Shown: in pieces, positions 19,141 to 28,785 of the stretch | How positions within the stretch are numbered: the stretch's first letter is position 1 | Layout: every line of letters begins with the position of its first letter | IMG/VR virus record: IMGVR_UViG_3300006226_001702 | Coordinates: 75,064 to 139,063 of that record | Length of the DNA: 64,000 nucleotides | Direction: 5' to 3' (one strand) | DNA from: a virus | Lineage: Duplodnaviria > Heunggongvirae > Uroviricota > Caudoviricetes | The notes under the pieces: generated by a model | The model's database searches: none | Seen by the model: the letters and a program-made list of their open reading frames with translations, nothing else | What the model was told of the DNA's origin: nothing | Program-made: the position numbers and the translations under genes

Positions 19141-19470
19141 ATGAAACAGAACCCATTAGAAGATATCCAAAAAATTCGCTTAAATGAAGAAGAATATAAG
19201 TTTTGCGGTAAACTTGCCAAAAAAATAGAACGATATAATTCCTCATTGGAAGAAGATAGACAAAAAGTTTTAGCATATCTTGAAAAAGAATGCAAATCAA
19301 AAAAGTACACTGTCTCATATCATAAAATTGATACTGAAGACGAGTTTATCGTTTATCAATTCAACTTGAACAACAAGCCCTGTTATGTCTCATTTGAGAA
19401 AAATGGCAAAAGTAGTCCAAATCTAATACCTTCTGGTGTAGTGCAATTGGGGAATCCAAATAGCAACTAA
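19141..19470 (+). CDS. Hypothetical protein
   Basis: 109-aa ORF with class II motif. Confidence 0.7.
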   Translation: MKQNPLEDIQKIRLNEEEYKFCGKLAKKIERYNSSLEEDRQKVLAYLEKECKSKKYTVSYHKIDTEDEFIVYQFNLNNKPCYVSFEKNGKSSPNLIPSGVVQLGNPNSN

Positions 19471-19475
19471 TTACT

Positions 19476-20813
19476 ATGCAATATTGCACTAGTGTTATTA
19501 CGTTAAATGAAGTCTATGAAATACCAATCGACGCAATAAAGAAATGGCATATAGCTAATCATCTTGATGATGGTTTGCCTTATGGTTATGTTGACTTTCA
19601 AGATAGAACTGGTGACTTATTTGCTGCGTTTGAACATTTTCAAGTTGGCGCATCAGTTGATATCACTGTAGTCAATTTAGCCAATATGCAAAAACGTGTG
19701 TTCCCAACTTATAGAGTCCTCAAAATAGAAAATGACTTTGCTATTGACACATCATGGATGGCTGGTGTTGTTCGCATTTGGTATGGGCATCCTTGGTTTC
19801 TCTATAAGGACATGACTAATCATGCTTACAAGCCAAAGAATATTGGCGAGCAGATTAAAGATATCCTCAAAGATGAAACGAGAGGAATTAAGTTCAATGA
19901 TGAAAGACCCGCTCCTCCACCAAATAATGACTTTCCACAGTTATACACTGATGACATGGATAAGAACTTTGATAGAACTGATGACACTGGAAAGTTTACT
20001 CGTTACAAAATAGCTGAATCAGACTGGGACTTTATTAAGAATAAGCTTTTGCCATACACTGCTATTGGTCAGTTACCTGCTCACTTTTATACAGATGACT
20101 CAAATGATATGTTCTATTTGAAATCATTCAGAAATCTATATAAGCAAAAGCCAAAAATTGTTTTCCACCAAAAGGAAGAAGTACTTCAAGAGGAAAACAA
20201 CTTGAAGAGATTACAGGACAATATCCGTAACAATAACATTGACTTAAACACTGGACATTTCATTATACAATCTGCCAATATGGTAATCAATGACTTTAAT
20301 TTGATTAAAGAGATCTACCCGTCATTTTATATTGAAAACTTAGAGATGACTACATTCTTAAAAGGTAGTAAACGATTAGCCAACAAATTACGACCAAGGT
20401 CAGGCGTTTCATTTGGTAATGTGCTTCCAATAGATGCAGTACTTGCCTCTTCAATAAATGGCACTGATGCTAAGCTTATTCATAATCGGCAGCTAATCGA
20501 TGGTTTATTCTTGCTCTTTCAAACTTCAAAAGAGTTAGACAAGATGTTCTCATTAAATGTTGTGACTTATTTCAATGGACATGTCATTACAGTTGGCAAC
20601 ACAGCTGAAATCTTTTTAGCTCCAGTTGAAATGCCAAATGGAAAGAAAACACACTGGATGAATGGAAAGTGGCTCATAACTGGAGTGGAACATTTTATGG
20701 CTGATAATAACCCAAGGTTGATATTCACTAATACAACTATTATCCGTCCATCATTTATTGGTACTGACACTAAAACATCATTACAATCATTGCCGCTACT
20801 TTATGAGAACTAG
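19476..20813 (+). CDS. Baseplate hub-like protein (gp27/gpD-like)
   Basis: C-terminal GKWLITGVEH strand typical of hub proteins; position before a spike-like gene; ACTAATTA-CT-ATG start. Confidence 0.5.
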   Translation: MQYCTSVITLNEVYEIPIDAIKKWHIANHLDDGLPYGYVDFQDRTGDLFAAFEHFQVGASVDITVVNLANMQKRVFPTYRVLKIENDFAIDTSWMAGVVRIWYGHPWFLYKDMTNHAYKPKNIGEQIKDILKDETRGIKFNDERPAPPPNNDFPQLYTDDMDKNFDRTDDTGKFTRYKIAESDWDFIKNKLLPYTAIGQLPAHFYTDDSNDMFYLKSFRNLYKQKPKIVFHQKEEVLQEENNLKRLQDNIRNNNIDLNTGHFIIQSANMVINDFNLIKEIYPSFYIENLEMTTFLKGSKRLANKLRPRSGVSFGNVLPIDAVLASSINGTDAKLIHNRQLIDGLFLLFQTSKELDKMFSLNVVTYFNGHVITVGNTAEIFLAPVEMPNGKKTHWMNGKWLITGVEHFMADNNPRLIFTNTTIIRPSFIGTDTKTSLQSLPLLYEN

Positions 20814-20821
20814 GAGATATT

Positions 20822-21619
20822 ATGGACGATAAACAATCACTCTTTCAAGAGTTTATGAATAACCCATTAGATATGGATAAACGAAAACAAGCTGCTTTTT
20901 CAGATGAGTTAGTTGTTCGTAAAGCCAAAATCTACAAAGTGTTAGGCCCAAATGATGATAGACTTCAAGTTCAAGTTCTTCCTGAATTACAGAGCATTCC
21001 AGATAATGAGATGGATGATTTACCAAAATATCCACCATTCATTAAGGGTCATGTAGTTACTGGAAAATCTCACGTTAAATATGGAAAAGAAGCAGAGTTC
21101 GTTTGGGTGTTTTGTACAGCTGACTTACAAGTTGGCTACATATTGGGCAAGGCTAACCGTTTTGAAAAGAGCACTCAACGTTTTAATGATAGCTATTCAT
21201 ACAGAGATATCAAATCATTCATATCAGCTCGTAGAGCTCTTCCAAGTGACTTTGACTACGAGCATTTAGATGTAGTTCATTGGGTTAGCACTGACAAAGG
21301 TGGTATGATTCAATGTTACAACTATCTCACTGGAGACTGGGTGCTTCTAAACACATCAGGAGCTATCTTAACAGTTCAACAGAAAATGATCTATCTCAGA
21401 GTTGGTACGCCGCCATTCCCACCAAAGCTTGGGCCTGTTGCATTTAGCGCAATCACACTAACACCTGACAAGATTCATTTCAAAGCACCTAACATTGAGT
21501 TCGATGCTATTGACTTAATCTTAGCTCATAATGGGTTTAGCGCAACTGGCATATTGGGACAAGTTCCTTCAGCTGATAATGGCGTACCTGTAATTCCCGT
21601 GCGAAACGTTCATATCTAG
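20822..21619 (+). CDS. Baseplate spike / gp5-gpV OB-fold-like protein
   Basis: RKAKIYKVLGPNDDRLQVQVLPEL resembles the gp5/gpV OB-fold start; beta-strand-rich C-terminus; SD AGGAG. Confidence 0.5.
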   Translation: MDDKQSLFQEFMNNPLDMDKRKQAAFSDELVVRKAKIYKVLGPNDDRLQVQVLPELQSIPDNEMDDLPKYPPFIKGHVVTGKSHVKYGKEAEFVWVFCTADLQVGYILGKANRFEKSTQRFNDSYSYRDIKSFISARRALPSDFDYEHLDVVHWVSTDKGGMIQCYNYLTGDWVLLNTSGAILTVQQKMIYLRVGTPPFPPKLGPVAFSAITLTPDKIHFKAPNIEFDAIDLILAHNGFSATGILGQVPSADNGVPVIPVRNVHI

Positions 21620-21620
21620 A

Positions 21621-24600
21621 CTACTCATAATCGTCAATTCCAACCATAAACTGCTGCCAAATTTCTGGCACTTCACCATCAACACCTGGAACAGCTCTAT
21701 CTTGCTTTCCAGTTATTGGGTACACTGAATAAGCCATTGGGCCCAATAGTGTAACGTATGCATCCTTTCTAATTGAAGGTTTAATGTTTGGTGCTTCATA
21801 TAAGCGCAATTTCAAGTCCGTCTTGTAACCAGTGTTTCGTGGCCATTGATTTTCTGGTACTCTAATTGTCCAGAAGTCTGCTCCCTCTTCAATGAGACAG
21901 AGAAGTTCCTCAGGTGAAATTGACTCTTTACTGTACTCAATTAAGTTGTCAACATTTATTGTCCCAAAAACATTCCATCTAATTGGAGTTAAAGTATCTT
22001 GATTGCCCCAGAAAATCTGCCAAATTGCTGTATCATAATCTTCAACTGGTCGTTGTGGATCATTTGGATGTAACTCATTCCACTTCATGTCTCTGTCGTT
22101 GTTGAGCCATTCTTTACTAAATAGTTGATACATTCCATCCCGTGGTTTTTCGGCATACTTAATTTCGCCGTCATGTTCGATAATAACTACTTCTTCAACT
22201 TCAACATATTGGTTTGGATTATCTCGATATTTAATCCACTTATCATAAGCCTTTTCATCAACCCATTTAACTCTAACATACACAACGTTAACTCTGTCAT
22301 CATCTAATTCATATTCATTCATTAGAGCTTCATGCTTTATAGTTGTGTTATTCTGTAACTCATAGAATGCAACCTTATATGAAATGAGCTTAGTTTGTAG
22401 TCTAGTTGGTGATGGCGGAGGATTATGTTTGTCAGTGAATGGCACCATAAACTCGAGAATTGATTCAAGTTGTCTCATTATCCACATTGTGCCATCTTCT
22501 TTATTAAAGCGCTTACATATGAAGTAAAGTCTATAATTGTAGAGAATATTCAAATAAGCAAACATAAAGTTGTCAATTAAGTCGCGAGGTTCAACCGCCT
22601 TAAACTCAGCTAACAAGTCAAAGGCTGAACATATTTCGTTAAATGTCCATTCCCATGGGTCTCTTAATACGAGTGATGTAAAGTGTTGAATTGCTACCTT
22701 AAACATACGGATTCTATTGTTGACTAACGTTTTTAGCTCATCTTTAGTTTTCTCATGTGTTGCTTTATCACCAAAAAGTTGTACCGCCATATCAGTCCAG
22801 TAAGCATATAATGGGTGATCTTTGTCAGCACCAATCATTTCGCCATCTGGAGTTAAACCATTTGCTTTAATCACACACTTATCAACACATTCAAATAATG
22901 CATTATGCATAACTTCAAAGTCAACTGTTTCAACAATGCTTTCTTTCATTATCTCATAATAAGGAAGTTGAGTCTGTAATATTGATAAGAAGTTTCTAAA
23001 TGGCACATCAATGCTAATGAATGAGTAGGGCTGTTCTTCTACAAATTCAGGCTTAAACAATGCTCTAGTGTACATCTTAATGAAAGTCATTTTGAGTGCA
23101 TCATCCATATCAGTTGTTGTGTATGTCGTTTCATTAGTTGTCCAATGATGATAGCCATACTGATTGTGATAACGATAATATCCATTATGCCAACCATATC
23201 CCCAACTGTTGTAACCGTAGCCATAACCTACATTGTGGCCATAACCGGGCCAGCCCCAATACCCGTGCCCATAGTATGAATACCAAGAGTTTCCCCAACC
23301 CCAACCGTAGCTCCAGTTCCATCCCCAGCCTCGATTGTAGTAGTGGTTATAACCGTAACCCCAACCAAAGTGGCGATAGTTCCAATTCCAACCACCATAC
23401 CAACCCCAGTTCCATCCATAATTGTAGCCCCAGTTGTTGTAGTAGTTGCCATAGTTGTAATAGTCATTGTGGTAATAATCTTGGTCAGCTGTATGAAACT
23501 TGAACTCGAGATCTTTTAATGGGACATCTTTACTGTAGTCTGGAAGTGCTCCATGTTTTCTGAAATAGATTGCTACATTTGGCTCGACACTATCTTCAAT
23601 GTCTGGGTCTAATCCCATCATATCAGAGAGAATGCCAATGCCTGATATTCCCTGTGTTGCTGTTGATGTCCACCATATTGGATTGAACCAAAAGCCCCAG
23701 CCCCAACCTCTATAGCGCCAAGAGCTTCCCCAGCCACCTCGCCAGTTGTAATACCAGTTGTTCCAGCCAGACCCTCTCCAGCCCCAGTTCCATCCCCATC
23801 TCCAACGACTCCAATACCAAATGTGAGCTGTTACAACATCATAATGATTGTTCGTAAACTTGTTCATTATGTTGTCAAAATAAGGAGCTGATTCATATCT
23901 ATTCTTAATGAGCTTAATGTGTAATGGTACATCATGCCCGCTTTCATATTTGTTTGTAAACAATGGTGCTTGTAAGTTATCTTCAAAGAAGTCTATTGAA
24001 GTTAAATCAACTGAGATATAATAGACTTTCTTGAAACGAGGCCACCACCAACCCCATCCCCATCCACGCCAGCCCCAGCCACCGCGGTTCCATCCCCACC
24101 AGGAATGATTATTACCTCCCCAACCTCTTCGGCCCCATGAGCCAAACCAGTTACCAAGACGATGACCCCAATAACCACCGCCTCTCCAACCCCAGCGGCC
24201 CCAACCGCCCCAGGATCGGCAAGCATCCCAATAGTAACTAACGGAACACTTTGCTCTAAAGATTGCATCAGGTCCTTGTGTGTATCTATTATCTTCATTT
24301 CCTAACAAGAACAATAGTGAAACTTCGTTCTTGCCATGATAATCGTTATTCAACATTCTTCTAATGAAGCGGTTTTCTAAATCACTGTCTCCATAGAACT
24401 TTAACACATAGGCATTCTTTTTCTGAACTTCACGAGGTTGATACCAATGTCCTCCCCAACCCCAATAGCTGCTATGTCTCCAAGTTCGATAGTTGTAACG
24501 ATGATATCTATTCCATCCCCAATAGCCAGAAGTGTAATAAGCACCCCAGCCTCCCCAAGGATTGGCCCAAGAATATCTCCATCCCCAGCCCCAACCCCAG

Positions 24601-27188
24601 CCAAATGATGGTGGCTGAGTATCACCAAACTCATGGTGGATAATGTTCCACTTAACATCTGGCATATCTTCAAAGACGTACTTTTTATATGGGACTAAAC
24701 CAACTTCATAGTAGGTTCCCATTCTGAAAACGTCATAAGTGATTAAGTTGTAGCGCCAGCCACCACCCCAATATCCATAGTAGTATGAGTTGTAATAGTT
24801 ATGATAACTGTAGTAATTGTAGTACCAATTGCGATAAGTCCAAGGATGCCATGCCCAAGTGATTCGTCTCTGTCTGTACTCTATCTCTCCAGTGTAAGTG
24901 ATTGGGTAACCCTGTGATGTGTGGTTTGGGAAAGTGAAGTTACTGAAGTTGTACCACCAGTAGTGCCAACTAACATTGCCCTGCACCCAATCAGTCTTAT
25001 ATTGACCGCCCATTTTGTAGTCAATAACGTATGTGTTTAGTCCTTGAACTAACTTCTTTAATCCAGAATGGAAAGTTTGTGATTTCTTCTCTTCATCATC
25101 TCTGTGGTAAAAGTCATTCAAGTCTTCTATTGTGTCTTCATATCCCTTAGTTGTAAAGTACTCATTGTTGAGATGTGATATGCGCGGGATATTGCGAAGA
25201 TATTTGCTATCTTGTTGGAACCAAGCTCTGTATGTAATCGGTGAGAAGTCAGATGAATGAGGACCGCCCCAAATTGGTGGACTGTATCTGTTTATACCAG
25301 TCATCTTACCCATTTGAGATGCATCAGGTTTCATGTTCAAGCCAGCATCTAAGAATGCTTTAGCTTGATCGTTGTTCATTGGGTCACCTGACATGCCTCT
25401 CAAGAAATCTTCAAATGGTGAAACGTCTTGCCCATCACCAGCTCCGATTAGTCTGTTTGCTGCATCTAAACCAGCCTGATGTGATGATTTCTTCTGTCGC
25501 TTATCAGTTGAACGACCTCGGCGTATCTTTTGGTCTCCATCTTTAACGATAGACATACCAGCATGAACACCTAAACCAGAGTGAACACTCCAATGAGGGG
25601 CAATGTGAGCTAAAACTCCAGTGTCAACAAACGGCTCCATCTTTTGCATAATATGTTGCCATTCACCTGGGTCATCATATTTCATTCCTAAAGCTGACTT
25701 AACTTCTTCTCTACCTTGGTAACCTGTGCCTAAACCCGCTGGGTCTGGTTTACCATTTAGCCCACCATTACAAAGCATTTCAACCTTAGCTAAAAAGGCA
25801 AGTTCACCTGCATCAATGCCAACTTCTTTTGGCATTCCAGGAGGTGCTCCTTTGATTAGCGACATCATGTACTCAAGTTCAACTTCAAAGTTAGTGAGTG
25901 CTTCATGATCAGATGAATAGAACACTTCATAATACTTGCTATTGAAGTTTGCATGAGCACCCATTATCATACCTTGATAATCTTGATGTCTAAATATGTC
26001 TCTTAAACTCCATTTATCTTCATATGTAAAGTCTGGGTCCCATCGATCATAAATGTCAATGTATGGCATTTTGATATCCATTGCAAGTTGCCCATTATAG
26101 TACTCAAAAAATGCGATGTCATAATCTCTACCGGCAACGTATGGAAGATGCCATTGTGCTAGCGGGAAGTCTGAAGGGCGCCAATGTGCTTGACAGTCAA
26201 ACCTAACTTTTGAAACAGCACTACCTGCAACATTAAAACATAGAGCCTTTTCAGTTGTGCTGTAATCACTATCAACTGCTGCCATTGGGTTATCTTGATA
26301 GATTCTGTAATTCAAGAAAAGATGAATTGGTCCGCCATTTGCCATTGGAGTCATCATTCTTTCTTGCATGTAAATTGATAAGTCCCATTCAGTTAAGAAT
26401 GTTGAAGTTACCCCAGTGATGCCTTCAGCTAACCATTGAAGATAAATGATGTTGTCATTTATTGCCTTAAATCCTGGGTCTCTATAAGTAAATCCATTTT
26501 TTCGGATTCTGAAATTATCTTGGTCAAATGCTATATTTGGTTGGTCCTCTTTAATCCTGTGCATGAACAATGTGTTTTGATCAAGCTCTGGGAATAAACC
26601 AACTTTGAATGGCGGAAAGAATAATGTTGTGTAAAACTCACGCCTAGATGATATGCTATTATTGTCAATGAACTCACGAGTATATGGAATAGCAAAATTT
26701 GAGCGAGTGTACATTTCACCATTTACTATCGTTCCTAACTCATCTGTTTTTGCTGTATCTAAAACAGTACCAGTAACTGGGCCCAATCTCCAAAGTGAGT
26801 CTGACAATTTTGGTGACATATAACAGTCGAAATAAAGTTGAAGAAACTTAAGCTTCATTTCTTCTTGAAGCTGTTTGTAAATAACATCAGCCTCTTCTGA
26901 CATATCTTCTGGTGCATCAGTACCATCAACTAATTTCTGTAAGTCTTCTTCAAACTTCTGTTTTTTAGTGATTGTTCTGTCTTGGCTGTCTATCTTTTTG
27001 CTAATGAGAATATTGAACCAAGATAAGTCAGTATCTTTTGCGTCTCTAATAGTTGGATTAGCCAACCAATAGTTTACATCAGCCCACTTCTTGTACTCTT
27101 CGATTCTTTCCCATAGATTAGCAAAGTCGTTAACACCAGTGAAATGATCATTTCGTATAAAATCTTCTCTGTTATATGGAGTAAACAT
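21621..27188 (-). CDS. 1855-aa probable virion protein with W/G/Y/N-rich low-complexity islands
   Basis: Long ORF; SD AGGAG; located in the structural module. Confidence 0.85.
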   Translation of the reverse strand: MFTPYNREDFIRNDHFTGVNDFANLWERIEEYKKWADVNYWLANPTIRDAKDTDLSWFNILISKKIDSQDRTITKKQKFEEDLQKLVDGTDAPEDMSEEADVIYKQLQEEMKLKFLQLYFDCYMSPKLSDSLWRLGPVTGTVLDTAKTDELGTIVNGEMYTRSNFAIPYTREFIDNNSISSRREFYTTLFFPPFKVGLFPELDQNTLFMHRIKEDQPNIAFDQDNFRIRKNGFTYRDPGFKAINDNIIYLQWLAEGITGVTSTFLTEWDLSIYMQERMMTPMANGGPIHLFLNYRIYQDNPMAAVDSDYSTTEKALCFNVAGSAVSKVRFDCQAHWRPSDFPLAQWHLPYVAGRDYDIAFFEYYNGQLAMDIKMPYIDIYDRWDPDFTYEDKWSLRDIFRHQDYQGMIMGAHANFNSKYYEVFYSSDHEALTNFEVELEYMMSLIKGAPPGMPKEVGIDAGELAFLAKVEMLCNGGLNGKPDPAGLGTGYQGREEVKSALGMKYDDPGEWQHIMQKMEPFVDTGVLAHIAPHWSVHSGLGVHAGMSIVKDGDQKIRRGRSTDKRQKKSSHQAGLDAANRLIGAGDGQDVSPFEDFLRGMSGDPMNNDQAKAFLDAGLNMKPDASQMGKMTGINRYSPPIWGGPHSSDFSPITYRAWFQQDSKYLRNIPRISHLNNEYFTTKGYEDTIEDLNDFYHRDDEEKKSQTFHSGLKKLVQGLNTYVIDYKMGGQYKTDWVQGNVSWHYWWYNFSNFTFPNHTSQGYPITYTGEIEYRQRRITWAWHPWTYRNWYYNYYSYHNYYNSYYYGYWGGGWRYNLITYDVFRMGTYYEVGLVPYKKYVFEDMPDVKWNIIHHEFGDTQPPSFGWGWGWGWRYSWANPWGGWGAYYTSGYWGWNRYHRYNYRTWRHSSYWGWGGHWYQPREVQKKNAYVLKFYGDSDLENRFIRRMLNNDYHGKNEVSLLFLLGNEDNRYTQGPDAIFRAKCSVSYYWDACRSWGGWGRWGWRGGGYWGHRLGNWFGSWGRRGWGGNNHSWWGWNRGGWGWRGWGWGWWWPRFKKVYYISVDLTSIDFFEDNLQAPLFTNKYESGHDVPLHIKLIKNRYESAPYFDNIMNKFTNNHYDVVTAHIWYWSRWRWGWNWGWRGSGWNNWYYNWRGGWGSSWRYRGWGWGFWFNPIWWTSTATQGISGIGILSDMMGLDPDIEDSVEPNVAIYFRKHGALPDYSKDVPLKDLEFKFHTADQDYYHNDYYNYGNYYNNWGYNYGWNWGWYGGWNWNYRHFGWGYGYNHYYNRGWGWNWSYGWGWGNSWYSYYGHGYWGWPGYGHNVGYGYGYNSWGYGWHNGYYRYHNQYGYHHWTTNETTYTTTDMDDALKMTFIKMYTRALFKPEFVEEQPYSFISIDVPFRNFLSILQTQLPYYEIMKESIVETVDFEVMHNALFECVDKCVIKANGLTPDGEMIGADKDHPLYAYWTDMAVQLFGDKATHEKTKDELKTLVNNRIRMFKVAIQHFTSLVLRDPWEWTFNEICSAFDLLAEFKAVEPRDLIDNFMFAYLNILYNYRLYFICKRFNKEDGTMWIMRQLESILEFMVPFTDKHNPPPSPTRLQTKLISYKVAFYELQNNTTIKHEALMNEYELDDDRVNVVYVRVKWVDEKAYDKWIKYRDNPNQYVEVEEVVIIEHDGEIKYAEKPRDGMYQLFSKEWLNNDRDMKWNELHPNDPQRPVEDYDTAIWQIFWGNQDTLTPIRWNVFGTINVDNLIEYSKESISPEELLCLIEEGADFWTIRVPENQWPRNTGYKTDLKLRLYEAPNIKPSIRKDAYVTLLGPMAYSVYPITGKQDRAVPGVDGEVPEIWQQFMVGIDDYE
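23143..24990 (-). repeat. Five imperfect Trp/Gly/Tyr/Asn/Arg-rich peptide repeat islands
   Basis: e.g. GWGWGWGWRY, WGGWGRWGWRGGGYWG, WRWGWNWGWRG, YGWNWGWYGGWNWNY; islands at ~24740-24990, 24437-24610, 24038-24240, 23670-23826, 23143-23481. Confidence 0.9.
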
Positions 27189-27196
27189 CCAATCTC

Positions 27197-28765
27197 CTAT
27201 TCATAATCTTCTATATCAAATTGTGGGCTTTGAACTAATGATTGTTCACTTGCTCCACTACTCTTACTTACCATTGCTGTTGCAAGTTGTAATCCCGCTT
27301 TTGCATCCATCATTGCGTCAAATACACCATCAGCTTCATCTGCCAAATCACCGAGGCTACCTTTTAACCTGTCGGCTGTATCATTGAATTTGCCCATACT
27401 ATTTGCTAAACCAGTTTTAACACCAGTCATAACAGCATTTTGCATATCTTGTCCGGCCTTTTTGATGTCAATGCCATTTTGGAATTTCTCTTTCATCTCT
27501 GCACCAAATGCAGCCCAAGCTTCTTTCTTGCCTTTTGCATCAGCCATGATTTCTTCGAGAGGATCCATTATATCACTCTTAAGTTTACCTGCTAACATAT
27601 TAACTGCGGTGGGATTGAATGCATTCATTATTGATTTGAACATGGAAATTGCTCTTCTAATTTGCTCGATAATATCAGCTGTTTGATCAGCAACACAGTC
27701 TAAGTTCAACATATCCCAAATGAGCTGCGTAATCATACCAATTAGCTTAACGATTAGCGCAACAATTAGTTCAAGAACTTTTTGAGCAATCATTGGAATG
27801 TTTGGTGGGTTTATCCACGCACCTGACGCAAGGTGTAAAATGTCAATGAGTGGAAAAATGATCGCCATAATTAGCTCAATGATTATCTTGAGGATTTTGA
27901 TAAGCTTAACTAATATGAGCAACATCTTTAACCAAGTCATTTCAATTTCAGTACACTCACGCATTTCGCGTTCAGCTTTTTCCTCGGGTGATTCATCATA
28001 GATATCATCATCACCATCGTCATCATCCATTCCATCATCTAAATTGTCAGCGCCGTCTCCGCCATCACCATAACCATCATCACCATCTCCGCCATCACCT
28101 CCAGGGCCACCTGGAGAATCTGGGCCACCACCTCCGCCTGGGCTATCGTCGTCACCGCCATCTTCACCGCTTCCTCCACCAGAACTATCGCCACCTTCAC
28201 CACTGTCAGTTGGAATGTGATAACCATCTTCTAAGTCATACACCTCAGATTCAGCATCATCAAATTCAAACTTCTTCAAGATGTACTCACAATCTAAAAT
28301 GATTGGATGGTCAAGTTCCTGTAACAAATCAGGCATTGGAAATAAGCCAATAACTTCTTCAAGCAACTTTTCCATTGGTGAAGCATCATGAGATGAGCCC
28401 GGAGCTACAACACCATTTACGAGAAACTTTGAGGGTGAATTGAAATTGATAACTGGGAATAAAAGTGCGTTGCCTAAACCACCAGTTTGAGCTAATAGTC
28501 GCTGCTTCTTAATTGGAATACCTTGAGGAAAAGTTTCTCCGCCTAAAGCATGTGAATAGATCTCAACAGGTGTTGCTGCTGGTTGGATTCTTTTGAGAAC
28601 AATATTGTCAGTGACTTCTTGAAGCTTCTTAGCAATTTTGTCCAATTGGTCAAATGATATTTCACGTTTTGGATTTAAGTTTACTGAGTCTACGCTTGAA
28701 TAATCGAAGTCTTTTTGGGTATATTGGTCATATAACCGTTTAATGGTGAGATTGTTCTCATTCAT
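27197..28765 (-). CDS. Probable virion protein with Gly/Asp-rich linker and long hydrophobic helices
   Basis: GGDSSGGGSGEDGGDDDSPGGGGG linker followed by WLKMLLILVKLIKILKIIIELIMAII; ACTAATTA-CT-ATG start. Confidence 0.75.
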   Translation of the reverse strand: MNENNLTIKRLYDQYTQKDFDYSSVDSVNLNPKREISFDQLDKIAKKLQEVTDNIVLKRIQPAATPVEIYSHALGGETFPQGIPIKKQRLLAQTGGLGNALLFPVINFNSPSKFLVNGVVAPGSSHDASPMEKLLEEVIGLFPMPDLLQELDHPIILDCEYILKKFEFDDAESEVYDLEDGYHIPTDSGEGGDSSGGGSGEDGGDDDSPGGGGGPDSPGGPGGDGGDGDDGYGDGGDGADNLDDGMDDDDGDDDIYDESPEEKAEREMRECTEIEMTWLKMLLILVKLIKILKIIIELIMAIIFPLIDILHLASGAWINPPNIPMIAQKVLELIVALIVKLIGMITQLIWDMLNLDCVADQTADIIEQIRRAISMFKSIMNAFNPTAVNMLAGKLKSDIMDPLEEIMADAKGKKEAWAAFGAEMKEKFQNGIDIKKAGQDMQNAVMTGVKTGLANSMGKFNDTADRLKGSLGDLADEADGVFDAMMDAKAGLQLATAMVSKSSGASEQSLVQSPQFDIEDYE

Positions 28766-28785
28766 AGTAATTAGTAGAAAAAGGA

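What the first reader, a model, noticed from the sequence alone, without database searches (positions are those of the whole stretch)
23143..24990. Giant structural protein with five W/G/Y/N/R-rich islands
Seen: ~1.85 kb of the 1855-aa ORF alternates ordinary sequence with five islands made almost only of W, G, Y, N, R, H and S (e.g. WGGWGRWGWRGGGYWG, GWNWGWYGGWNWNY). The tryptophan density is extreme and the islands are costly for an AT-rich genome (TGG/GGN codons), which argues for selection. Inference: these may be looped-out segments of a baseplate/tail protein acting as membrane-interface or penetration peptides (like W/R antimicrobial peptides), aromatic glycan-stacking adhesins, or prion-like/phase-separating stickers.
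Basis: partly seen in the sequence, partly recalled or inferred. Interest (0 to 1): 0.8.

Follow-up and report, generated by a model that had tools for sequence, protein, structure and literature searches.

The report
Tryptophan-rich loops in giant phage protein
A 1855-residue protein of an uncultivated giant phage carries five real, selected patches made mostly of tryptophan, glycine and tyrosine. Four of them are lineage-specific expansions at fixed loop sites of a protein family with no known relatives, probably sticky pads for touching the host envelope, though that role is untested.

Summary
ORF 21621-27188 (minus strand, 1855 aa) has five islands totalling 356 aa, with 20.5% Trp, 20.5% Gly and 17% Tyr. 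The background in this 198.6-kb phage record is 1.6% Trp, and no other ORF there has such islands.

**Real and selected.** The closest relative (P0002) has all five islands. Synonymous sites between the two are saturated, yet 55% of island residues and 49 of 73 island Trp are conserved. Gly codons are mixed and there are no strong DNA repeats or G-quadruplex motifs.

**A new family.** About 100 full-length metagenomic relatives exist, one in a termite-gut virome. None matches Pfam, PHROGs, NCBIfam, PDB sequences or cultured phages, and no fold search gave a significant hit.

**Anatomy.** An AlphaFold model puts island 1 inside confident long β-strands. Its slot has a fixed length of 78 aa and is aromatic-rich in many relatives. 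Islands 2-4 are low-confidence inserts, two of them between modelled flanking strands; islands 2-5 sit at length-variable sites. Trp-richness of the middle region changed at least 14 times on the family tree.

**Context.** The gene is coupled to an upstream gene with a hydrophobic hairpin, behind a late-promoter-like motif, next to the baseplate genes.

The virion location and the adhesive or membrane-interface role are inferred, not shown.

The parts
21621..27188 (-). Giant ORF, P0001, 1855 aa. It is the founding window member of an unannotated jumbo-phage protein family.
   Evidence: Searches give the open frame. Searches give 8 close homologues and 134 representative homologues. Searches find no Pfam, PHROG or NCBIfam match.
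25674..27188 (-). N-terminal domain, aa 1-505. It is a conserved α/β domain (motifs FPPY, GFKAINDNI, LTEWDLSxYMQE).
   Evidence: Alignments A1 and A3. AF2 pLDDT is about 90. It co-occurs with the C-domain in about 100 representatives. No fold match.
25314..25673 (-). Low-confidence linker, aa 506-625. It is G/S/K/D-rich and length-variable in the family.
   Evidence: pLDDT is below 50. The segment is indel-rich in A1. G/S-rich runs occur at this position in other members.
25239..25298 (-). Near-invariant motif GINRxSPxhxGGPH(G/S), aa 631-650 (the window protein reads GINRYSPPIWGGPHS).
   Evidence: G631 and G642 are invariant, and P637, G641, P643, H644 and P650 are at least 90% conserved across 76 sequences.
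23859..25091 (-). β-rich middle module, aa 700-1110, with very long strands. It carries islands 1-3; island 4 begins just after it.
24729..24860 (-). Island 1, aa 777-820: Y 32%, W 14%, net charge +1. It is part of a conserved aromatic β element.
   Evidence: pLDDT is 77-96. Its slot is 76-80 aa long in seven of the nine close relatives and 101-103 aa in P0008 and P0009. W/Y-rich patches map to this slot in 23 of 74 other members.
24426..24611 (-). Island 2, aa 860-921: W 21%, G 19%, net charge +5. It is an insert between strands 848-855 and 923-930.
   Evidence: pLDDT is below 50. The slot is 76 aa here against 36-51 aa in relatives. It aligns without gaps to P0002.
24024..24245 (-). Island 3, aa 982-1055: W 26%, G 28%, R 12%, net charge +10. 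It is an insert between long strands 975-993 and 1048-1061.
   Evidence: pLDDT is below 50 over residues 995-1047. The slot is 78 aa here against 36-51 aa in relatives, and it differs from P0002 by indels.
23667..23834 (-). Island 4, aa 1119-1174: W 30%, net charge +6.
   Evidence: Composition. It aligns without gaps to P0002. P0004, P0006 and P0007 have shorter W-rich patches at the same slot.
23127..23486 (-). Island 5, aa 1235-1354: Y 25%, G 22%, N 15%, W 15%, aliphatic 1%, net charge -1. It lies just before the C-domain.
   Evidence: Composition. The slot is 134 aa here against 11-37 aa in relatives and 106 aa in P0002. It was not covered by the model.
21624..23108 (-). C-terminal domain, aa 1361-1855 (motif KRFNKEDGTMWIMRALES).
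   Evidence: Alignment A2. Its profile finds 134 representatives. The only model is poor, with pLDDT 55.
27197..28765 (-). Upstream partner gene, P0143, 522 aa: an N-terminal domain, an acidic G/D linker, two strongly hydrophobic segments (aa 274-353) and a helical A/K-rich tail. Its stop lies 8 nt before the giant gene's ATG.
   Evidence: A homologue sits directly upstream of the giant gene in L002, L004 and L015.
28768..28775 (-). ACTAATTA motif 2 nt before the P0143 ATG, with no Shine-Dalgarno sequence. The identical 12-mer CTAATTACTATG stands before the gene at 19476.
   Evidence: Earlier scan notes read this motif class as a late-type promoter; that reading is unverified.
19476..21619 (+). 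Two convergent genes of 445 aa and 265 aa that travel with the partner and giant genes in distant relatives.
   Evidence: BLASTP to L004, L002, L015 and L014 gives E-values from 1e-23 to 0. The 265-aa family has 71 unnamed relatives.

Best explanation
**Shown.** The ORF encodes a genuine giant protein of a previously undescribed family from uncultivated jumbo phages. The architecture is a conserved N-domain, a flexible linker, an invariant GGPH motif, a β-rich middle module and a conserved C-domain. Island 1 is a conserved aromatic β element of the middle module. Islands 2-5 are expansions, specific to this lineage, of loops at fixed sites. They are built from aromatic residues alternating with Gly, Arg or Asn and are kept by purifying selection.

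**Inferred.** The protein is made late together with its hydrophobic upstream partner and is part of, or delivered by, the tail/baseplate. The aromatic islands, cationic in islands 2-4, project as sticky pads. These pads hold the protein at the host envelope during adsorption or penetration, either at the membrane interfacial zone or by stacking on surface sugars or choline head groups. The repeated gain and loss of Trp-richness across the family would then reflect tuning to different host surfaces.
For: - **Real and under selection:** against P0002, pS is 0.78 (saturated) and pN is 0.32. Island identity is 55%, 49 of 73 Trp are conserved where about 15 are expected by chance, and islands 1, 2 and 4 align without gaps.
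- **Protein-level cause, not DNA-level:** Gly codons are mixed (GGT 29, GGC 24, GGA 17). Tandem-repeat scores are at most 44, and there is no canonical G-quadruplex motif.
- **Fixed sites:** in 74 other members, W/Y-rich patches fall only in the same slots and almost never in the N-domain. Slots 2-5 are 30-100 aa longer here than in relatives.
- **Topology:** islands 2 and 3 lie between modelled neighbouring strands, and island 1 lies within confident strands.
- **β-like pattern:** aromatics avoid adjacent positions and favour i+2 and i+4 in islands 2, 4 and 5, with z down to -3.9 at lag 1 and up to +3.4 at lag 2.
- **Labile trait:** the state 'at least 5% Trp in the middle region' needs 16 changes on the tree, at least 14 of them forced by well-supported branches.
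- **Context:** gp5-like hub and gp6-like wedge genes are nearby. A four-gene module survives inversions. The same start-proximal motif precedes P0143 and the gene at 19476.
- **Partner and virome source:** the partner has two TM-like segments while the giant protein has none. A relative lies on a contig from purified termite-gut virus particles.
Against: - No sequence or fold search links the protein to any known virion, baseplate or entry protein.
- In distant relatives the gene's neighbours are recombination and replication genes (RecA, Metallophos, 5'-3' exonuclease). Linkage to baseplate genes is therefore not universal.
- The 'late' reading of the ACTAAxTx motif is untested, and the motif is not enriched overall: 39 copies against 34 expected.
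- Low pLDDT in islands 2-4 may only reflect their absence from most alignment rows, so exposure is not proven.
- Many family members do without large islands, so the islands are not essential to the family's core function.
- The host assignment (Treponema) comes from earlier unchecked notes.
Confidence: 0.4

Rival explanations
1. The islands act as internal glue. They are self-associating aromatic/glycine 'zippers' that lock copies of the giant protein to each other or to neighbouring virion proteins. This would resemble the glycine loops of high-glycine-tyrosine keratin-associated proteins, or tryptophan-zipper hairpins, and would not involve contact with the host.
For: The alternating aromatic/Gly pattern gives one all-aromatic face and one Gly face, which suits sheet stacking. 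Island 1 is already an integral β element. Island 5 is neutral and G/Y/N-rich like known matrix and adhesive proteins. Positional conservation of Trp is high.
Against: Repeated gain and loss across close relatives is unusual for an interface on which assembly depends. Islands 2-4 carry net charges of +5 to +10, which would repel like copies. No oligomer test was run.
Confidence: 0.2
2. The protein is not a virion component. It works inside the infected cell, for example as a scaffold whose aromatic/Arg/Gly islands drive condensate formation or bind nucleic acid, together with the membrane-anchored partner P0143.
For: In distant relatives the gene's neighbours are recombination and replication genes. 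In the window the gene follows the NrdD block. Island 5 resembles prion-like or FUS-like low-complexity sequence, and islands 2-4 are R/G/W-rich. No virion-protein homology was found.
Against: The module stays next to baseplate genes in the window's clade, and P0143 shares its start-proximal motif with a gene of the structural block. Size and architecture (1500-2400 aa, β-rich middle) are typical of tail or baseplate giants. Trp is rare in known condensate-forming regions (general knowledge).
Confidence: 0.15
3. The islands are tolerated low-complexity expansions with no function of their own, produced by slippage or biased mutation in loops that accept any insert.
For: They sit at indel-prone slots. 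Islands 3 and 5 differ from P0002 by indels. Weak 9-15-nt repeats exist in the DNA. Many relatives lack large islands. Islands evolve somewhat faster than the rest of the protein, with pN 0.32 against 0.21-0.24.
Against: pN is far below the saturated pS, and two thirds of Trp positions are kept. Trp and Gly codons run against the genome's AT bias. The same unusual composition recurs independently in many branches of the family and only at these sites. Synonymous Gly codon diversity argues against recent slippage.
Confidence: 0.12
4. The islands mimic or feed a specific partner system. Two candidates are GW/WG 'Ago-hook'-like decoys for a host defence protein, and Trp-rich substrates cross-linked by one of the phage's radical-SAM/SPASM enzymes, as in darobactin-type W-x-W chemistry.
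For: There are 33 GW and 32 WG dipeptides, and WNW and WGW triplets are common. The genome encodes several radical-SAM enzymes according to earlier scan notes.
Against: There is no gene linkage between the giant gene and any radical-SAM gene in relatives. W-binding pockets are known only in eukaryotic Argonautes (general knowledge). Embedding in a conserved 1855-aa multi-domain protein does not fit a decoy peptide.
Confidence: 0.03

Closest known systems
Trp/Arg-rich cationic antimicrobial peptides (indolicidin, tritrpticin, synthetic (RW)n; reviewed in PMC6017362)
   Same: Islands 2-4 share the composition: W 21-30%, R 10-12%, almost no acidic or aliphatic residues, and net charge +5 to +10. 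Such sequences partition into the membrane interfacial zone (general knowledge).
   Different: Those peptides are free and about 13-20 residues long. The islands are 56-120-residue inserts in a 1855-aa protein, are much richer in Gly, and islands 1 and 5 are neutral. No homology exists and activity is untested.
Aromatic-rich membrane-proximal regions and fusion loops of enveloped-virus entry proteins (HIV gp41 MPER; W/G-rich flavivirus E fusion loop)
   Same: In both, Trp/Gly-rich segments are displayed by a viral entry protein to engage the target membrane interface. In class II proteins the loops sit at tips of long β-hairpins, which resembles the modelled positions of islands 2 and 3.
Glycine-loop, high-glycine-tyrosine and prion-like low-complexity proteins (keratin-associated HGT proteins, FUS-type [G/S]Y[G/S] regions)
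   Same: Island 5 has Y 25%, G 22%, N 15% and GYG/GYGYGY runs with 1% aliphatic residues. Aromatic 'stickers' are spaced by Gly in both.
   Different: Those proteins have little Trp. In this protein Trp makes up 15-30% of each of islands 2-5. The islands are inserts within a folded protein, not a free tail. No evidence on disorder or phase behaviour was obtained for island 5.
GW182-type GW/WG Argonaute-binding repeats
   Same: High density of GW and WG dipeptides, 33 and 32 respectively.
   Different: Ago hooks are isolated Trp residues in long, polar, disordered regions of eukaryotic or plant-virus proteins. In these islands Trp is five to ten times denser, alternates in a β-like pattern, and sits in a phage giant protein.
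T4-type baseplate hub and tube-initiator gene cluster (gp27-gp28-gp29-gp48-gp54)

Membership tests
Any Pfam, PHROG or NCBIfam family | Profile match above threshold | tested here: not met
   P0001 matches no family. No shared family appears among 25 diverse members or 9 short-form members.
Choline-binding / cell-wall-binding aromatic repeats (CW_binding_1) and Listeria GW modules | Regular repeat of about 20 aa (or a module of about 80 aa) recognised by the Pfam profile | tested here: not met
   The Pfam scan at E up to 0.1 returns nothing. No regular period is present: the best tandem-repeat score is 44 with 2-3 copies.
Trp-rich cationic antimicrobial peptides | High Trp plus Arg content and net positive charge | tested here: met
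   Islands 2-4 have W 21-30%, R 10-12% and net charge +5, +10 and +6. Islands 1 and 5 do not fit, with net charge +1 and -1.
Trp-rich cationic antimicrobial peptides | Short free or released peptide | tested here: not met
   The islands are internal segments of a continuous 1855-aa ORF. No processing signal was identified.
Trp-rich cationic antimicrobial peptides | Membrane-perturbing activity | not testable with these tools
   This needs liposome or cell assays.
Tape measure protein | Predominantly α-helical, extended protein | tested here: not met
   The middle 400 residues are modelled as long β-strands and the N-domain as a compact α/β fold.
Tail tube / Hcp-fold proteins (tube, tube initiator, hub domains) | β-barrel of the tube fold recognisable by structure comparison | tested here: inconclusive
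Class II viral fusion proteins | Three-domain elongated β fold | tested here: inconclusive
T4 baseplate proteins with solved structures (gp5, 6, 7, 8, 9, 10, 11, 25, 27, 29, 48, 53, 54) | Sequence-profile similarity | tested here: inconclusive
   Profiles of the N-domain, N plus middle region, and C-domain, and of the three neighbouring genes, give no PDB hit better than E = 0.18 and none to a phage protein. Remote homology is not excluded.
Prion-like / FUS-like low-complexity domain | G/S/Y/N/Q-rich composition with few charged or aliphatic residues | tested here: met
   Island 5 has Y 25%, G 22%, N 15%, aliphatic 1% and net charge -1. It also has 15% Trp, which is atypical.
Prion-like / FUS-like low-complexity domain | Intrinsic disorder and phase separation or amyloid formation | not tested
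   Island 5 lay outside the 1200-residue model. No disorder predictor or assay was available.
GW182-type Ago hook | Multiple GW/WG motifs | tested here: met
   The islands hold 33 GW and 32 WG dipeptides.
GW182-type Ago hook | Binding to Trp pockets of an Argonaute PIWI domain | not testable with these tools
   No host genome or partner was identified. This needs binding assays.

The most novel reading that the evidence does not exclude
The middle module of this phage protein family is a new kind of host-envelope contact device. It would be a β-hairpin scaffold whose tips carry evolvable Trp/Gly/Arg 'interfacial pads' that bind lipid head groups directly, for example the phosphocholine-rich, LPS-poor outer membrane of treponemes, instead of a protein or polysaccharide receptor. 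If so, these jumbo phages adsorb to or breach a spirochaete outer membrane by direct aromatic insertion.
Probability: 0.12. Interest if true: 0.85.

Novelty: new variant of a known kind. Interest (0 to 1): 0.6.

Why it matters
Segments of 56-120 residues with 15-30% tryptophan, kept by selection in an AT-rich genome, are very unusual. A word-based search of 5.8 billion proteins with island 5 found only 68 candidates sharing any 5-residue word, and none scored.

The islands sit in a large, widespread jumbo-phage protein family of about 100 representative clusters, which has no annotation and no recognisable fold.

If the islands are envelope-binding pads, they would show how giant phages of spirochaetes engage an outer membrane that lacks classical LPS. 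They would also provide natural, long Trp/Arg/Gly sequences for membrane and glycan biophysics. If instead they are assembly glue or condensate stickers, they extend the known sequence range of such elements to Trp-dominated ones.

Either way, the family and its conserved four-gene module are a defined target for structural work on uncultivated jumbo phages.

Tried and rejected
- **DNA-level explanation.** There is no canonical G-quadruplex motif (G3+ runs with loops of 1-7 or 1-12 nt) in the gene or the window, and this does not differ from synonymous-codon shuffles. Tandem repeats are weak. I dropped this idea.
- **Fold searches.** The 1200-residue model was searched against PDB, BFVD, AFDB clusters, the ESM Atlas and VIA-wide. 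Nothing was significant.
- **C-domain model.** The model built from nine sequences was too poor to search, with pLDDT 55.
- **ESM Atlas feature searches.** Searches with P0001 and P0129 gave no usable hit.
- **Other collections.** tblastn of P0001 and P0129 against 50,697 phage records found no match. A scan of 185,579 prokaryote species genomes with the C-domain found no relative, so there is no sign of a prophage copy or a named host.
- **Complex prediction.** The P0001 N-domain with P0143 returned no verdict, score 0.00. This is not evidence either way.
- **Island 5 against longer proteins.** No hit.
- **T4 late promoter.** TATAAATA is not enriched: 10 copies against 9.8 expected.
- **Literature.** Searches for Trp-rich phage virion proteins found nothing relevant.
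- **Antisense ORF 23138-23503 (+).** I treat it as a by-product of the low-complexity coding strand.
Full report
**Observation.** The window's minus strand holds an uninterrupted ORF at 21621-27188 that encodes 1855 aa. A sliding-window scan finds five islands made almost only of W, G, Y, N, R, H and S. They lie at aa 777-820, 860-921, 982-1055, 1119-1174 and 1235-1354, or nt 23127-24860 overall. Together they are 356 aa with 73 Trp (20.5%), 73 Gly and 60 Tyr. GW and WG are the commonest dipeptides, at 33 and 32. ORFs of at least 150 aa in the whole 198,648-bp virus record average 1.6% Trp, and no other ORF has such an island. The binomial chance of this Trp count is about 1e-56. The islands raise local GC to 49.5%, against 37.5% for the rest of the gene.

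**The five islands are not alike.** Island 1 is Tyr-rich and near neutral. Islands 2-4 are W/G/R-rich with net charges of +5, +10 and +6. Island 5 is Y/G/N/W-rich and neutral.

**Not an artefact and not a DNA-level phenomenon.**
- The closest homologue, P0002 (62% identity), lies on an independent 13.4-kb contig and has all five islands.
- The identical 1855-aa protein is also recorded on a 183,314-bp contig.
- Between P0001 and P0002 synonymous sites are saturated (pS 0.69-0.81). Non-synonymous divergence in the islands is only pN 0.32, against 0.21-0.24 elsewhere in the protein.
- Island identity is 55%, and 49 of 73 island Trp align with Trp where about 15 are expected by chance. Islands 1, 2 and 4 align without a gap, while islands 3 and 5 differ by indels.
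- Gly codons are mixed and tandem repeats are weak.
- There is no canonical G-quadruplex motif, which matches synonymous shuffles.

Selection therefore acts on the protein sequence in this frame.

**The protein family.** P0001 has no Pfam, PHROG or NCBIfam match and no tblastn match in 50,697 phage records. A word-indexed search found eight homologues of 1552-1780 aa. A profile of the C-terminal 500 aa then found 134 cluster representatives, 84 of them at E below 1e-30 and most 1500-2400 aa long. The N- and C-terminal domains co-occur in about 100 full-length representatives, including minimal forms of about 1050 aa. None of 34 diverse members shares any Pfam or PHROG family. No relative exists in 185,579 prokaryote species genomes. 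One member, P0019 (1829 aa), lies on LSPZ01000001, the largest contig (299,025 bp) of a termite-gut metavirome made from purified particles (PMC5759034). The family is thus a widespread, unannotated component of uncultivated jumbo phages.

**Architecture.** An AlphaFold2 model of residues 1-1200, built from a 76-row alignment, has mean pLDDT 72 and pTM 0.65. It shows the following parts.
- A compact α/β N-domain, residues 10-505, with pLDDT about 90.
- A low-confidence G/S/K-rich linker, residues 506-625.
- A well-modelled stretch that starts with the near-invariant motif GINRxSPxhxGGPH(G/S), residues 631-650.
- A β-rich module with very long strands: 720-736, 762-778, 810-837, 975-993 and 1048-1061.

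Island 1 falls inside confident strands (pLDDT 77-96). Islands 2, 3 and 4 have pLDDT below 50. Islands 2 and 3 lie between consecutive strands: 848-855 and 923-930 for island 2, and 975-993 and 1048-1061 for island 3.

**Islands across the family.**
- In the nine closest relatives the slot holding island 1 is 76-80 aa in seven and 101-103 aa in P0008 and P0009, and it is always Tyr-rich (10-19 Tyr).
- The slots of islands 2-5 vary in length. In P0001 they are 30-100 aa longer than in most relatives, and the extra residues are nearly all W, G, Y, R or N.
- In 74 more distant members, W/Y-rich patches map to the same slots: slot 1 in 23 members, slot 2 in 4-5 and slot 3 in 3-4. They are almost never found in the N-domain. 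Their sequences are unrelated but similar in composition, for example WWWWGWGWYRW and WRWSWRWSWHWFHFHWW.
- The middle region averages 3.6% Trp against 1.9% in the flanking domains. P0001 and P0002 are the extremes at 10-11%.
- On a tree built from the N- and C-domains, the state 'at least 5% Trp in the middle' needs 16 changes, at least 14 of them forced by well-supported branches.
- Aromatic residues avoid adjacent positions and favour i+2 and i+4 in islands 2, 4 and 5, as expected for β-strands with one aromatic face.

**Genomic context.**
- The giant gene is the last gene of a long leftward block that also holds a split NrdD. It converges on a rightward block that contains a gp6-like wedge gene.
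- That rightward block is preceded by a gp5-like hub gene of 2218 aa and a tail-fibre-like gene.
- Directly upstream, with its stop 8 nt before the giant's ATG, lies P0143 (522 aa). It has an N-domain, an acidic G/D linker, two strongly hydrophobic segments (aa 274-353) with conserved Cys, and an A/K-rich helical tail. The giant protein has no such segment.
- Homologues of P0143 precede the giant gene in L002, L004 and the distant L015. The 445-aa and 265-aa genes that converge on it here are also its neighbours in those three contigs, in different orientations. In L014 only the 265-aa homologue was found. The four genes therefore travel together.
- P0143 has no Shine-Dalgarno sequence and is preceded by CTAATTACTATG, the same 12-mer as the 445-aa gene. 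Earlier notes of this scan read this motif class as a late, leaderless-type promoter, but I did not verify its timing.
- In other distant relatives the neighbours are recombination and replication genes, so linkage to the baseplate is not universal.

**Interpretation.** What is shown is a real, conserved giant protein of a new family. It has one conserved aromatic β element and four lineage-specific, selected Trp/Gly/Tyr/Arg-rich loop expansions at fixed sites.

What is inferred, with confidence about 0.4, is that the protein is a late, tail- or baseplate-associated component working with its hydrophobic partner. On this reading the islands are exposed sticky pads that engage the host envelope, either at the membrane interface or by stacking on sugars or choline head groups. 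Their lability across the family would then reflect adaptation to different host surfaces.

I rank the rivals as follows:
- intra-virion glue (0.2);
- an intracellular scaffold, condensate or nucleic-acid role (0.15);
- tolerated low-complexity expansion (0.12);
- partner mimicry or radical-SAM cross-linking (0.03).

An assembly or frame artefact is effectively excluded. The host (Treponema) is taken from earlier unchecked notes. The termite-gut relative is compatible with it.

**Comparison with known systems.** In composition, islands 2-4 resemble Trp/Arg antimicrobial peptides and the Trp-rich membrane-proximal or fusion-loop segments of enveloped-virus entry proteins. Island 5 resembles glycine-loop, high-glycine-tyrosine and prion-like sequences. 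GW/WG density recalls Ago hooks. None of these is a homologue, and the defining functional features could not be tested here. The gene order loosely recalls T4 gp27-gp28-gp29-gp48/54, but no profile or fold result supports membership.

**Verdict.** This is a striking, selected sequence feature in an undescribed jumbo-phage protein family whose function is still open. I rate interest at 0.6.

Noticed in passing
window 27197-28765 (-): The upstream partner P0143 has a 70-residue acidic Gly/Asp linker, then a hydrophobic hairpin (aa 274-353) with an invariant NP (NPPNI in the close relatives) and two invariant Cys that is highly conserved. Both P0143 and the giant protein end in D-Y-E. It might be a membrane-inserting or tape-measure-like protein.
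   Followed up: partly
window 19476-28765; L004, L002, L015, L014: A four-gene module (445 aa, 265 aa, partner, giant) is conserved. The first two genes are inverted relative to the last two between the window and its closest relative L004, and all four are co-oriented in the distant L015.
   Followed up: partly
window 19462-19478 (+) and 28763-28779 (-): The identical 12-mer CTAATTACTATG, which includes the start codon, precedes two genes that lack a Shine-Dalgarno sequence. This fits the leaderless late-promoter idea in earlier notes. The octamer class ACTAAHTW is not enriched overall: 39 copies against 34 expected.
   Followed up: partly
window 25239-25298 (-), aa 631-650: The motif GINRxSPxhxGGPH(G/S) follows the disordered linker and has the only invariant positions outside the N-domain across 76 family members (G631 and G642). 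It could be a processing, hinge or metal site.
   Followed up: no
L016:1-4980 (LSPZ01000001, termite-gut metavirome): A coiled-coil protein of more than 3216 aa, with faint tropomyosin and scaffold-like Pfam hits, lies 7 kb from the family member on this 299-kb contig.
   Followed up: no
G000:C1:54051-57038 (about 18-21 kb before the window start): A 995-aa ORF has almost no aromatic residues (W 0.2%, Y 0.3%) and a weak 'tail protein' PHROG hit. It is a better tape-measure candidate than P0143.
   Followed up: no
window 23138-23503 (+): A 121-aa antisense ORF lies exactly opposite island 5. It is most likely a by-product of the stop-poor low-complexity sequence.
   Followed up: no
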